Assembly (NCBI GenBank): GCA_965221655.1
Contig: OZ244906.1
Coordinates: forward strand, 173,339-237,338
Length of the DNA: 64,000 nt
Reading direction: 5' to 3'
DNA from: a bacterium
Lineage (GTDB): Bacteria > UBA8248
Part shown: in pieces, positions 24,259 to 47,875 of the stretch
Layout: every line of letters starts with the position of its first letter
Numbering within the stretch: the stretch's first letter is position 1
Notes under the pieces: generated by a model
Databases searched by the model: none
Told to the model about the DNA's origin: nothing
Seen by the model: only the letters and a program-made list of their open reading frames with translations
Position numbers and translations under genes: made by a program

Positions 24259-24804
24259 TTATGAGGCGGCGATGAGCATCAACAACGCGGCGGCTATCGC
24301 CGCCAGGATCACCAGCTTGCACCCGCACCCGAGGGCAGACCTCTTCTTCTTCCCGCGTCCCGGTGCGGATCTCCCTTCCGTGAAAACGCGCTCAAAGGGA
24401 ATCGGTTCCACGCCGGTGATCTCACAAAAACGCTCCTCGCTTTGGTCTCTCAGCGACTTGAGGGCTGCCTCGAATTGCGCGGCTTCCGTGCGGGTGGACA
24501 GGGGGCCGGACTGCCAAATCAGTTTCGGGTCGCCGTGGGCGGTGGAGGGAACTTCTCCCTCGCGGTGGGCGCGCAGACGCCCCCGCACGTGGGCGGTGTG
24601 TCCGACGTAGTGGCCGTAGTGGGTCTCGAGCACGTAGACGTAAAACGCACTACGCCCCAGGGCCGCGTCGCGTGCGGCCAGACCCTCGATGCGTTCGGGG
24701 TCGTGCCATCCGCCCCGGCGGCGACGCACGTGGCAGTCGTAGCAGCGGACGTAGCCGCTGCCCATCGGCCCTCCGCAATCGGGGCAAACCCTCGATGCGC
24801 ACAC
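24259..24804 (-). CDS. GIY-YIG nuclease-domain protein with N-terminal zinc ribbon and C-terminal transmembrane helix
   Basis: N-terminal CPDCGG...CYDCH zinc ribbon. GIY-YIG core FYVYVLETHYGHYVGHTAHVRGRLRAHREG. C-terminal KLVILAAIAAALLMLIAAS hydrophobic helix. Confidence 0.55.
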   Translation of the reverse strand: MCASRVCPDCGGPMGSGYVRCYDCHVRRRRGGWHDPERIEGLAARDAALGRSAFYVYVLETHYGHYVGHTAHVRGRLRAHREGEVPSTAHGDPKLIWQSGPLSTRTEAAQFEAALKSLRDQSEERFCEITGVEPIPFERVFTEGRSAPGRGKKKRSALGCGCKLVILAAIAAALLMLIAAS

Positions 24805-24820: not shown

Positions 24821-26053
24821 CTATGCGTCGATGATGCGGAAGGTTCTGTCCTGGGGAATCAGCGGCTCCCAGCCGTTTTCCTTCACGATGACCGAGTACT
24901 CGATCTGGTATCCGCCGTAGCCGAACGTGCCCACCGGGGCTTCGATGTTGATCACCGAATCGACGGGCAGGGGAATTTCCGAGGTTTCGGGATAAAACGG
25001 CTGCTCGTGTCTGGATTCCGGCCCCATGATGAAGGGAAACTCGCGCGCCTCGAGCCCCACCGTGTGGCCCGCGAAGGGGGCGTCGAACTCCGGGAAGCGC
25101 GACTGAATGCCCCGCAGCAGCGCCTGGTATATCTGGTTGCCCGTACAGCCCGCCTTGATGACGTCCAGGCACTCGTGAAAGCCCTCCTCGATGCCCTTCC
25201 ACTCGCGCAGCGTCTGCGCGCTCGGCTCGCCGATGGAGCCGCAGCTGCCCGTGTCGGCGTTGTAGTTGCGGTAGAAGAGCCCTGCGTCGAACATGAAGTG
25301 GTCGCCGCGCTCGAGCTTTCTCTCCGTGGGCGGGAAGATAAAGACGCTCCTGGGGCCGCTGTTGAAGTGGAACCAGTGCCACATGCCGCCGGGCTTCGCC
25401 ACGGCCTCGCGCCAGACCTCGGCCACCTCGCGCTCGCTCACGCCCGCGCGCACGAAGTCGAACACCCGGCCGATGGCGTCTTCGTTCACCTGCGCCGCCT
25501 CGCGCAGGCGCTCGAGTTCTTCCGCCGTCTTGACGAGCCGCGTCATCAAAAACAGGCCCGAGCCGGGGATGAACTCGCAATTCGGCAGCTTCTCTCTGAG
25601 TGCGGCGAACAGGCTGTCCGGACAACCCTCCTCATCCAGGGCGATTCTGCCCGAGGTGATGCCGCGGGCCTTAAGCGCCGCGAGGAGCCCGTCGAGCAGG
25701 GTGGCGTGCTTCGCCCCGCTCTCGTGGAGTGCGCGGTACCGGCGCATCTCCTCGTCGTGGGCTTCGTAGCCTGCGGGTTCGATGTGATACGCCTGCCCGC
25801 CCCAGACGTAGACGTTCTCGGCGTGTCCGCCGTAGGCGGCGTAATAGGTGTTGTCCGCGCGGTTCATGATGAGGTCGGTGCCCGCTCCTGGGTCGTTCGC
25901 CATCACGGCGTAGCTCTTGCGCGCGCGGTAGACGCGCTGCGCCCAGCCGATGTGGCCCGTCAGGTAGGTTACGTTCTCAAGCGTCGTGCCGATCATCGCG
26001 ACGACGTCGTTCTCCCGCATCAGTTCCAGTGCGCGCTGCCTGTTGTAGAGCAT
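24821..26053 (-). CDS. M24-family metallopeptidase (creatinase/Xaa-Pro aminopeptidase-like)
   Basis: N-terminal creatinase-like domain. C-terminal pita-bread fold with HTVGLEAREFP and IEYSVIVKENGWEPL. Probable start MLYNRQRALELM (26053) after TGGAGA. Confidence 0.8.
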   Translation of the reverse strand: MLYNRQRALELMRENDVVAMIGTTLENVTYLTGHIGWAQRVYRARKSYAVMANDPGAGTDLIMNRADNTYYAAYGGHAENVYVWGGQAYHIEPAGYEAHDEEMRRYRALHESGAKHATLLDGLLAALKARGITSGRIALDEEGCPDSLFAALREKLPNCEFIPGSGLFLMTRLVKTAEELERLREAAQVNEDAIGRVFDFVRAGVSEREVAEVWREAVAKPGGMWHWFHFNSGPRSVFIFPPTERKLERGDHFMFDAGLFYRNYNADTGSCGSIGEPSAQTLREWKGIEEGFHECLDVIKAGCTGNQIYQALLRGIQSRFPEFDAPFAGHTVGLEAREFPFIMGPESRHEQPFYPETSEIPLPVDSVINIEAPVGTFGYGGYQIEYSVIVKENGWEPLIPQDRTFRIIDA

Positions 26054-26184
26054 GGCGTTCTCCAGGGGGTCATGGAAAAAGGTGTATGCGGCCAAGCGTC
26101 CCGATGCCGCATATGTAGCACAACCCCCGCGCGCCGCGCGAGGCGGGAGGGCCTTGACACGAACGCCGCGAAACGCAAGGGTTT

Positions 26185-26505
26185 GGTGCTGCGTGCGTTG
26201 GACATCAGGCTGTGTTTCGCGGAGCGGAGACTGCGCAGAGAGGAGCCGGGCGCGCGGGGCAGAGTATGCTGCGTGCGTCGGACGTCAGCCCGTGTTTTGT
26301 GAGGCGAAGGCCGCGCGGGGAGCAATCGACCGCGCGGGGCGGAGCATACTTCGTGCGCCAGGCGGCGGATCGTGTTTTGTGAGGCGAAGGCCAAGCGGGG
26401 AGTGGCGCTTTGCGGGGAGGAGCCGGGCGCGGGCCCGAACCATGCTTCGCACGTGCCGGAGCAGGGGACGTTCGGCGGAGCGGGACAGCGAGGGGAGGAG
26501 GCGAG
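26185..26505. repeat. Degenerate ~83-bp tandem repeat, 3-4 copies, in a divergent intergenic region
   Basis: The units share blocks such as (c)atgcttcgtgcg...ggacgtc...CGTGTTTTGTGAGGCGAAGGCC...gcggggag... About 75% identity between copies, with a 22-nt identical core in copies 2 and 3. Confidence 0.5.
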
Positions 26506-26506
26506 C

Positions 26507-27082
26507 GTGGAACTGGATCGTGCGCGTGCCGAAGCGCTTTTGTTCGAGTGGACGAAAAGCCCGAACCTCAGGGCGCACGCCCGGGCGGTGGAGGCCGCAC
26601 TGCGCGCCTACGCGCGCAGGTTCGGGGAGGACGAGGAGCTCTGGGGCATCACGGGCCTGCTCCACGACATGGACTACGAGAAGCACCCCACGCCCGAGGA
26701 GCACCCCGAGACCGGCTGCGCGGTGCTGCGCGAGGCGGGCTATCCCGAGGAGATGATACAGGCGATTCTCGGGCACGCGCAGTATCTCGGCGTGGTGCGG
26801 GAGACGCGCCTGGCCCGCGCGCTTTTCGCCGTGGACGAACTGGTGGGCCTCATCACCGCCGTTGCGCTGGTGAACCCCGCGAAGGACGTGCGCGCGGTGA
26901 AGCCGAAAAGCGTGCGCAAAAAATGGAAGGACAAGGCCTTCGCCCGGGGCGTGGACCGCGGCGACGTGGAAAGGGGCGCGGCCGAACTCGGCGTGCCGCT
27001 CGATGAGCACGTCGCCTTCACGCTCGAGGCCATGCAGGGGGCGGCGGCCGAGCTGGGGCTCGACGGCGCGCTCGCGCGTTGA
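26507..27082 (+). CDS. HD-domain (HDIG) metal-dependent phosphohydrolase
   Basis: ...ITGLLHDMDYEKHPTPEEHPETGCAVLREAGYPEEMIQAILGHAQY... carries the H-D signature. GTG start at 26507 after GGGGAGGAGG. The longer ORF starting at 26372 runs through the repeat tract. Confidence 0.7.
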   Translation: MELDRARAEALLFEWTKSPNLRAHARAVEAALRAYARRFGEDEELWGITGLLHDMDYEKHPTPEEHPETGCAVLREAGYPEEMIQAILGHAQYLGVVRETRLARALFAVDELVGLITAVALVNPAKDVRAVKPKSVRKKWKDKAFARGVDRGDVERGAAELGVPLDEHVAFTLEAMQGAAAELGLDGALAR

Positions 27083-27123
27083 GGCGCGGCCGGATTTTTT
27101 TATGAAAAAAATTTTATTTTGCG

Positions 27124-27152
27124 TTGACGGGCCGCAAGGTTTTGCGCATAAT
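27124..27152 (+). promoter_or_regulatory. sigma70-like promoter with AT-rich UP-like element upstream of korA
   Basis: TTGACG, 17 nt spacer, CATAAT. It is preceded by ggatttttttatgaaaaaaattttatttt and lies about 155 nt upstream of the korA ATG. Confidence 0.4.
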
Positions 27153-47453: not shown

Positions 47454-47593
47454 CTTGGCTGTCTCCTTTCGGGCTGCGTCAATCGCTGTTCCGGTGGTTT
47501 ATAGCACATCCCCCCGCCTCGTGCGCGTGCAGCAGCAGGGGGCAGAGATGCCGCCGCAAAACCCCTCTGGCCTCACGGGGAGGAGCCGCCCGA

Positions 47594-47875
47594 AGATTTT
47601 ATGGCTCGAAGATTTTATGGCTTGAAGGCTTTATGGCTTATGGGGAAGACTGCATGGGGAAGACTCTGTAGGGAGGCGCGCCGCACGGCCCACTCCTGCC
47701 GGGCATTCGCGCTGGCGGTCTCCACGGGTGCGCGGTCGATGCGTCGGGCGTATCTGCCGAATTCCTCGAATCGAAACGGGAGGGCGCACGGGTTTTCCCG
47801 CATGAAATGCAAAAAATGCCATAAACCCGGGAAAACCCGGTAAAACCCGGGAAAACTCGCAAAAACACGGGAACG
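47594..47875. repeat. Intergenic short tandem repeats (TTTTATGGCT x3, GGGGAAGACT x2, AAAACCCGG x3) with a flanking inverted repeat
   Basis: The first tract reads agATTTTATGGCTcgaagATTTTATGGCTtgaaggCTTTATGGCTtatGGGGAAGACTgcatGGGGAAGACTctg. The second reads CGGGTTTTCCCG ... ataAACCCGGgAAAACCCGGtAAAACCCGGgaaaac. Confidence 0.6.

What the first reader, a model, noticed from the sequence alone, without database searches (positions are those of the whole stretch)
26185..26505. Degenerate ~83-bp tandem repeat tract in a divergent promoter region
Three to four head-to-tail copies of an ~83-bp unit lie between the divergently transcribed M24 peptidase and HD-hydrolase genes. The units share atgcttcgtgcg..., ggacgtc and a 22-nt identical core (CGTGTTTTGTGAGGCGAAGGCC). 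They are too long and too degenerate to be CRISPR or REP elements. They do not encode a convincing ORF, because the long listed ORFs crossing them are low-complexity. Candidates are an array of regulator-binding sites, a structured leader or riboswitch-like element of the HD gene, or a decaying minisatellite. The last unit merges into the HD-gene ribosome-binding site, which favours a leader RNA role.
Basis: seen in the sequence. Interest (0 to 1): 0.55.

Follow-up and report, generated by a model that had tools for sequence, protein, structure and literature searches.

The report
Strain-specific 80-bp repeat in a leader
The region just upstream of a small HD-hydrolase gene has been copied head-to-tail about four times in this one lineage; the copies are drifting apart, they are absent from every sampled relative, and this looks like an ordinary bacterial minisatellite rather than a riboswitch or a regulatory array.

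Summary
The repeat is real. Three clear units and one degenerate unit of about 80 bp (not 83) fill 26187-26506, between the M24 peptidase gene (- strand) and the HD gene (+ strand, start GTG 26507). Adjacent units are 75-76% identical, far above shuffled controls. The last unit carries the gene's true ribosome-binding site and start codon. Units 1 and 3 carry homologous ribosome-binding-site-like stretches with GCG where the start codon would be. The unit is therefore a copy of the gene's own ~80-nt leader. A promoter-like block conserved across the clade ends where the tract begins, so the tract is probably transcribed as a ~320-nt leader (inferred).

About 18 relatives with the same gene order (71-88% protein identity, Nitrospinota-type genomes assembled from metagenomes) have leaders of about 47-90 nt and no trace of the unit. 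The unit occurs nowhere else in the window, in GTDB species representatives or in JGI metagenomes. There is no Rfam match, no excess folding stability and no coding signal. Evidence for a hairpin shared by the units is weak.

The units differ from each other less (24-25%) than this genome differs from its relatives at fourfold-degenerate sites (35-47%). That fits a duplication that arose after the split and is decaying neutrally. Verdict: an ordinary lineage-specific minisatellite.

The parts
26153..26187 (+). Promoter-like block of the HD gene, conserved across the clade (TTGACA at 26153-26158, then CGAACGCCGCGAAACGCAAGGGTTTGGT). The repeat tract begins at its 3' end.
   Evidence: The block GCGCCTTGACAG..CCGAAGCGCAAGGTTTAAT is nearly invariant in 10 aligned relatives and recognisable in the window. 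The sigma-70 consensus scan does not call it, so the promoter role is inferred from conservation and position.
26187..26266 (+). Unit 1 (80 nt). It contains a ribosome-binding-site-like stretch, AGAGAGGAGCCGGGCGCG, with GCG at the position homologous to the start codon.
   Evidence: 76% identical to U2; 67% and collinear with U4.
26267..26346 (+). Unit 2 (80 nt). It contains the 22-nt core at 26291-26312 and an internal ~20-nt sub-repeat, CCGCGCGGGG(A/C)...
26347..26442 (+). Unit 3 (96 nt; it carries a 16-nt insertion). It contains the 22-nt core at 26371-26392 and a ribosome-binding-site-like stretch, GGGGAGGAGCCGGGCGCGG.
   Evidence: (family D3).
26443..26506 (+). Unit 4 (degenerate). It carries the functional Shine-Dalgarno sequence GGGGAGGAGG (26491-26500) immediately upstream of the start codon.
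   Evidence: Collinear with U1 at 44/66, z 4.0. The ribosome-binding site and GTG align with those of all relatives.
26507..27082 (+). HD/HDIG-domain metalloprotein gene (191 aa), start GTG 26507.
   Evidence: Pfam HD 3.8e-08; TIGR00277 HDIG; homologues are 191-194 aa long; the start is conserved in relatives. A terminator-like hairpin lies at 27072-27089.
24821..26053 (-). Divergently transcribed M24 peptidase/creatinase-type gene. It is a neighbour, not part of the repeat.
   Evidence: Pfam Peptidase_M24 and Creatinase_N. The same divergent arrangement occurs in all close relatives.

Best explanation
The tract is a lineage-specific minisatellite. It arose by tandem amplification of the HD gene's own ~80-nt 5' leader, Shine-Dalgarno region included, probably through replication slippage or unequal recombination in a G-rich, internally repetitive stretch. 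The result is four head-to-tail leader copies downstream of one unduplicated promoter. The gene is therefore probably transcribed with a ~320-nt purine-rich leader. That leader contains three decayed pseudo-ribosome-binding sites that lack a usable in-frame start, followed by the real site. The copies have since diverged by point mutations and small indels at about the neutral rate. No specific function needs to be invoked. Any effect would be a strain-specific change in translation or mRNA stability of the HD transcript. What is shown: the repeat, its homology to the real ribosome-binding-site unit, its absence from relatives and from the other databases searched, and the lack of a structural or coding signal. 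What is inferred: transcription from the conserved promoter block, the slippage mechanism, and neutrality.
For: (1) The repeat is statistically solid. (2) Unit 4, which holds the true ribosome-binding site and start, aligns along its whole length with unit 1 (67%, z 4.0). Units 1 and 3 carry GAGGAGCCGGGCGCG, homologous to GAGGAGGCGAGCGTG. The unit is therefore a leader-plus-ribosome-binding-site copy. (3) The unit length (80 nt) matches the leader length in relatives, 47-90 nt. (4) The conserved promoter-like block is present once, immediately 5' of unit 1. (5) About 18 relatives with the same gene order, at 71-88% HD identity, lack the unit (nhmmer, covariance model, direct reading). There are no hits in GTDB representatives. 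In JGI metagenomes there is nothing except one unrelated 19-mer match. (6) The same spacer shows independent small tandem duplications in relatives: 14 bp x2 over the -35 box in L004, and 16 bp x2 in the leaders of L012 and L015. The region is duplication-prone across the clade. (7) Adjacent units differ by 24-25%, whereas fourfold-site divergence to the nearest relatives is 35-47%. An origin after the split followed by neutral decay is enough to explain this. (8) There is no folding excess, no Rfam family and no codon-position GC signal (0.63/0.76/0.71, against a third-position GC of 0.88 in real genes).
Against: Units 2 and 3 share a 22/22 identical core while their flanks are only about 60-70% identical. 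That is somewhat more uneven than uniform neutral decay predicts; my rough estimate is about 0.04. It could reflect selection on the core, or gene conversion, or a later partial duplication. RNAalifold on the four units finds a shared hairpin that scores better than column shuffles (z -1.8 to -2.7) and has 7 pairs changed on both sides. Units 1-3 show no significant similarity to the leaders of relatives, so the origin from the leader rests on the similarity among units inside this genome. Transcription of the tract has not been shown.
Confidence: 0.72

Rival explanations
1. Each unit is a functional structured RNA module: a hairpin or three-way junction built around the 5' GCTGCGTGCG and the mid-unit CGCGCGG. 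The array would be a tandem cis-regulatory leader, riboswitch-like or protein- or sRNA-binding, that controls HD translation.
For: The RNAalifold consensus hairpin across the four units has 91% of cells paired against 82% in shuffles, and 7 pairs with changes on both sides. The column-shuffle z is -1.8 to -2.7. The 22-nt core is identical in two units. The tract lies in the probable 5' untranslated region.
Against: The structure was selected on the same four sequences that were then scored. Single units and the whole tract fold no better than dinucleotide shuffles (z -1.1 to +1.1, and 0.01). G-rich sequence offers many G-U alternatives. There is no Rfam match. The covariance model finds nothing significant in about 18 relatives; the weak hits lie only over the ribosome-binding site and start. 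A regulatory RNA important for this widespread gene would be expected in at least some relatives.
Confidence: 0.1
2. The units are an array of DNA binding sites for a transcription factor that controls the divergent M24 and HD promoters.
For: The location is a divergent intergenic region, and an identical 22-bp core recurs at 80-bp spacing.
Against: The core has no dyad symmetry (read directly from the sequence). Only two of the four units keep it. The tract lies downstream of the conserved HD promoter-like block and far from the M24 promoter region. Relatives regulate the same gene pair from a spacer as short as about 190-240 bp that lacks the core. No regulator gene lies next to it.
Confidence: 0.05
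3. The tract is coding. Either it is an N-terminal extension of the HD protein, as in the deposited 236-aa model that starts at 26372, or it encodes small upstream ORFs such as the one starting at ATG 26266 (38 aa).
For: Gene callers extended the ORF to 26372 (P0001). Open frames cross the tract. ATG 26266 lies a few bases downstream of a GGGG run.
Against: Nearly all close homologues are 191-194 aa and start at the aligned GTG behind a conserved ribosome-binding site. No frame shows the third-position GC of 0.88 and second-position GC of 0.44 seen in real genes. An 80-nt period is not a multiple of 3. Long open frames are expected at 70% GC.
Confidence: 0.04
4. The tract is an assembly artefact: a collapsed or mis-joined repeat.
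For: The source is a genome assembled from a metagenome. Only two records hold this sequence, and they may derive from the same reads.
Against: The units are 24-33% diverged, so they are easy to assemble and cannot come from read stuttering. A second record, ERZ26695483 contig_8, is identical over 8.7 kb. The flanks are collinear with those of relatives.
Confidence: 0.03

Closest known systems
Bacterial intergenic minisatellites / VNTR loci, for example MIRU-VNTR loci of Mycobacterium tuberculosis (own knowledge; described as minisatellites in PMC3635867)
   Same: The units are tens of bp long (MIRU units are about 40-100 bp) and lie head-to-tail in an intergenic region next to a gene start. 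They probably arise by slippage or unequal recombination. Presence or copy number differs between lineages.
   Different: MIRUs form a dispersed family with many loci per genome and nearly identical units whose copy number varies. Here a single locus is visible, no other copy exists in 64 kb or in any collection searched, and the units are already 24-33% diverged. This makes it an old array, probably no longer expanding or contracting.
Tandem riboswitch or tandem leader architectures (glycine riboswitch, tandem T-boxes; own knowledge)
   Same: Repeated modules sit in series in a 5' leader upstream of one gene.
   Different: Those modules are conserved across phyla, have defined folds with covariation, and have Rfam models. 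This tract meets none of those tests.
Short tandem duplications in the orthologous spacer of related genomes (L004 14 bp x2; L012 and L015 16 bp x2)
   Same: They lie in the same intergenic region of the same gene pair and are tandem duplications of promoter or leader segments.
   Different: Their units are five times shorter, occur in only two copies, and are unrelated in sequence to the 80-bp unit.

Membership tests
Riboswitch / known cis-regulatory RNA family | Match to a curated covariance model | tested here: not met
   Rfam 15 at E-value up to 10 gives no hit inside 26054-26506. There are no gathering-threshold hits in 15 orthologous loci.
Riboswitch / known cis-regulatory RNA family | Conservation of the element upstream of orthologous genes | tested here: not met
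   About 18 relatives with the same gene order lack it.
Riboswitch / known cis-regulatory RNA family | A defined fold supported by stability or covariation | tested here: inconclusive
   Minimum-free-energy z-scores are about 0. The four paralogous units share a weak hairpin with some changes on both sides of a pair, but the structure was chosen on the same sequences it was scored on.
Minisatellite / VNTR | Head-to-tail copies of a 10-100 bp unit, significantly similar to each other | tested here: met
   Period 80, score 215; z 15 and 11.6 for adjacent units.
Minisatellite / VNTR | Presence or copy number varies between related genomes | tested here: met
   The array is present here and absent, with a single leader, in all sampled relatives. 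Variation among strains of the same species could not be tested: the only two records are identical.
Dispersed repeat (REP / MITE / MIRU-type family) | Multiple copies at unlinked loci | tested here: not met
   nhmmer and the covariance model find no other copy in the 64-kb window. Pattern scans of GTDB representatives and JGI metagenomes find none. The rest of the 2.9-Mb genome could not be read.
CRISPR array | Near-identical 23-50 bp repeats separated by unique spacers of similar length | tested here: not met
   The units are contiguous 80-bp copies that are homologous along their whole length, so there are no unique spacers.
Iteron or operator array | Short repeats, often with dyad symmetry, next to a rep or regulator gene and conserved with it | tested here: not met
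   The neighbours are a peptidase, an HD hydrolase, a GIY-YIG protein and an oxidoreductase. Only 2 of the 4 units keep the core. Protein binding itself cannot be tested with these tools.
Protein-coding sequence | Codon-position composition like that of host genes, and homologues of the product | tested here: not met
   GC by phase is 0.63/0.76/0.71, against 0.77/0.45/0.88 for HD. The N-terminal extension of P0001 is not matched in length by homologues, nearly all of which are 191-194 aa.

The most novel reading that the evidence does not exclude
The four units are functional copies of a new, lineage-restricted RNA hairpin module that includes the 22-nt core. Together with the decoy Shine-Dalgarno sequences they would act in series, for example as ribosome standby or sequestration sites or as a multi-site platform for an RNA-binding protein, to tune translation of the HD hydrolase. 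This would be a cis-regulatory array born recently from duplication of the leader.
Probability: 0.07. Interest if true: 0.5.

Novelty: new member of a known kind. Interest (0 to 1): 0.15.

Why it matters
It matters little beyond annotation. It shows that the deposited 236-aa HD gene model is over-extended into the repeat; the real start is GTG 26507. It also gives a clean example of a 5' leader, ribosome-binding site included, being amplified in tandem and then decaying, in a spacer that is duplication-prone across a clade of Nitrospinota-type genomes. If copy number varies among strains, the locus could serve as a strain marker. If the long leader with its decoy ribosome-binding sites altered expression, it would be a small case study of how new 5' regulatory sequence is born. 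Nothing here points to a new class of element.

Tried and rejected
(1) I thought by eye that the units were copies of the first ~20 codons of the HD gene. Local alignment against shuffles did not support this for units 1 and 2 (z below 0). Only the ribosome-binding-site stretch of unit 3 scored, marginally (26 of 500 shuffles). I rejected this in favour of a leader-plus-ribosome-binding-site origin.

(2) I tested whether units 1-3 are homologous to the leaders of relatives. They are not significantly so. Only unit 4 scores, through the ribosome-binding site and start, and nhmmer on a leader-only database found nothing.

(3) I searched for the unit in public collections. A degenerate 38-position pattern gave 0 hits in GTDB representatives and 0 in JGI metagenomes. 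The exact 19-mer core gave one hit in a low-GC 1.3-kb contig with no flanking similarity, which I take to be chance.

(4) The exact-protein look-up of the 191-aa HD product failed because the database holds the 236-aa gene model. P0001 then retrieved the locus.

(5) I considered a G-quadruplex. GGGG runs are frequent, but most are 13-60 nt apart, and only one relaxed candidate exists (26397-26435). I did not pursue it.

(6) I looked for internal promoters. The -10-like hexamers at unit starts (TATGCT, CATACT) have no -35 partner, and the scan calls nothing in the tract.

(7) One literature search failed on syntax and I did not repeat it.

Full report
OBSERVATION

The intergenic region between the M24 peptidase/creatinase-type gene (- strand, 24821-26053) and the HD/HDIG gene (+ strand) is 453 bp long. 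Tandem Repeats Finder reports an array at 26187-26402 with period 80, 2.7 copies, 77% matches and score 215. It is the only long-period array in the 64-kb window.

I divide the tract into four units:
- U1: 26187-26266.
- U2: 26267-26346.
- U3: 26347-26442, which is 16 nt longer than the others.
- U4: 26443-26506, a degenerate unit that runs straight into the start codon GTG at 26507.

Against dinucleotide-preserving shuffles:
- U1-U2 are 59/78 identical (z 15).
- U2-U3 are 60/80 identical (z 11.6).
- U1-U4 are 44/66 identical and collinear end to end (z 4.0; 1 of 1000 shuffles does as well).
- U2-U4 and U3-U4 are not individually significant.

The 22-nt core occurs exactly twice and has no near-matches elsewhere in the window.

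WHAT THE UNIT IS

U4 ends in the functional Shine-Dalgarno sequence and start, GGGGAGGAGGCGAGCGTG. U1 has AGAGAGGAGCCGGGCGCG at the homologous position. U3 has GGGGAGGAGCCGGGCGCGG at its 3' end. These are the same element with GCG in place of the GTG start codon. Each unit is therefore a copy of the gene's leader plus its ribosome-binding site.

My first idea was that the units copy the first codons of the coding sequence. It did not survive a shuffle test. The tract is G-rich (146 G against 79 C in 320 nt; GC skew about +0.3). It contains nested ~20-nt sub-repeats of the GCGGGGAG type, which is the kind of sequence prone to slippage.

CONTEXT FROM RELATIVES

The protein search found the same gene (P0001, annotated as 236 aa from GTG 26372) and many homologues, nearly all of 191-194 aa. 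I retrieved loci for six of them. A GTDB scan added relatives labelled as metagenome-assembled Nitrospinota or Tectomicrobia genomes.

L001 is identical to the window over 8.7 kb. All relatives with 71-88% HD identity keep the divergent M24/HD arrangement. Their intergenic regions are about 190-390 bp long. Among those at 84-88% identity:
- They share a strongly conserved block, GCGCCTTGACAG..CCGAAGCGCAAGGTTTAAT, which is nearly invariant in 10 aligned species.
- That block is followed by a variable leader of about 47-90 nt and then a conserved ribosome-binding site and GTG.

The window has the same block at 26153-26187, once, and U1 starts where it ends. I infer that this block is the HD promoter. 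The sigma-70 consensus scan does not call it, so this rests on conservation and position. If the inference holds, the whole tract is transcribed as a ~320-nt leader.

None of the relatives contains the unit. nhmmer run with --max on all 86 loci finds only the window's own copies. A covariance model built from the four units finds only weak hits (E about 1-6) over the ribosome-binding site and start of some relatives. A degenerate pattern for the unit found nothing in GTDB species representatives or in JGI metagenomes. The exact 19-mer core hit one unrelated low-GC contig.

IS IT A STRUCTURED RNA?

- Rfam gives nothing in the tract or in 15 orthologous loci.
- The whole tract folds no better than shuffles: z is 0.01 on the + strand and +1.98 on the - strand.
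- Single units give z between -1.06 and +1.10.
- RNAalifold on the four units proposes a hairpin with two small inner stems. In it, 91% of cells pair against 82% in shuffles, and 7 pairs are changed on both sides.
- Column shuffling gives z of -1.8 to -2.7 for sensible trims.

With only four paralogous G-rich sequences, and a structure chosen on the same data it was scored on, this is a hint and not evidence. I carry it as the main rival at about 10%.

IS IT CODING?

No. GC by codon phase is flat (0.63/0.76/0.71), whereas real genes here show 0.44-0.45 at position 2 and 0.88-0.89 at position 3. The period is not a multiple of 3. The N-terminal extension in the 236-aa model is not reflected in the lengths of homologues.

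AGE AND MECHANISM

Uncorrected divergence at fourfold-degenerate sites between this genome and its nearest relatives is 35-47%, for both HD and M24. Adjacent units differ by 24-25%, and U1 and U4 differ by 33%. The amplification therefore fits after, or around, the split from the sampled relatives. Its present state is what neutral decay would give.

The same spacer carries independent small tandem duplications in relatives: 14 bp x2 across the -35 box in L004, and 16 bp x2 (TCTTTGATTSGTCATC) in the leaders of L012 and L015. Alignment indels of 12-28 nt also change the copy number of a TTTGATTG-like motif. The region is thus recurrently prone to duplication.

One feature is not fully explained by uniform decay: the 22/22 identical core shared by U2 and U3 sits within flanks that are about 60-70% identical. 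Gene conversion, a later partial duplication, or weak selection could each account for it.

COMPARISON WITH KNOWN KINDS

The tract behaves like a bacterial intergenic minisatellite or VNTR. MIRU-type loci are the textbook analogue (own knowledge; PMC3635867 describes them as minisatellites). Unlike MIRUs, it is not visibly a dispersed family, and its units are old and diverged. It fails the tests for riboswitch, CRISPR, a REP/MITE family, an iteron array and coding sequence; the membership table gives the details.

VERDICT

This is a real but ordinary feature: a lineage-specific tandem amplification of the 5' leader, ribosome-binding site included, of an HD-hydrolase gene, now decaying. Its practical value is to correct the gene start to 26507 and possibly to serve as a strain marker. 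Interest is 0.15. Confidence in the main explanation is about 0.72.

Noticed in passing
window 26153-26187; L007 2899-2935 and the equivalent positions in L006-L017: The block GCGCCTTGACAG-N-CCGAAGCGCAAGGTTTAAT upstream of the HD gene is almost invariant across 10 species, while the leader after it varies freely. The 'spacer' between TTGACA and TTTAAT is 21 nt and is as conserved as the hexamers. It contains CCTTG...CAAGG inverted pentamers. This suggests an operator overlapping the promoter, or a promoter that is not of the standard sigma-70 type.
   Followed up: partly
L015 2939-2990, L011, L010, L012, L008 (leaders of the HD gene in relatives): The leaders of relatives carry one to three copies of a YTTTGRTTG motif at a spacing of about 12-16 nt. 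Copy number differs between species. TRF calls a 16-bp x2 repeat in L012 and L015. The window's core GTGTTTTGTGAGG begins like the GTGTTTGATTG of L015, but homology is not demonstrable.
   Followed up: partly
L004 2938-2966: The closest relative (88% HD identity) has a 14-bp tandem duplication, GCCTTGACTRGAAG x2, which duplicates the -35 box of the HD promoter-like block.
   Followed up: partly
window 24259-24804 (- strand): A 181-aa protein with a Cys-rich N-terminus and a GIY-YIG nuclease domain sits between the aldo/keto reductase and M24 genes. Among the loci compared it is present only here and in the identical locus L001. L003 has an ankyrin-repeat gene at that place, and L002, L004, L005 and L006 have nothing. 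This is a variable, possibly mobile, insertion site next to the repeat locus.
   Followed up: no
window 26372-27082: The public gene model for the HD protein (P0001, 236 aa) starts at GTG 26372, inside repeat unit 3. Relatives and the conserved ribosome-binding site indicate that the true start is GTG 26507 (191 aa).
   Followed up: yes
L002 3608-4000: In L002/L016 the M24-HD spacer is 393 bp because about 190 bp of unrelated sequence lies between the M24-proximal conserved TGTATCACA motif and the HD promoter-like block. This is another independent expansion of the same spacer.
   Followed up: no
window 47591-47638 and 47823-47873: Two short tandem arrays lie close together: a 16-bp unit CGAAGATTTTATGGCT x3 (90% matches) and a 10/20-bp unit AAACCCGGGA x5. 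Both are AT-richer than the surrounding sequence.
   Followed up: no
window 27072-27152: A terminator-like hairpin followed by a T-run overlaps the end of the HD gene (27072-27089). The only sigma-70-like promoter called in this region (TTGACG-17-CATAAT, 27124-27152) precedes the 2-oxoacid:ferredoxin oxidoreductase genes. The HD gene therefore looks monocistronic.
   Followed up: no
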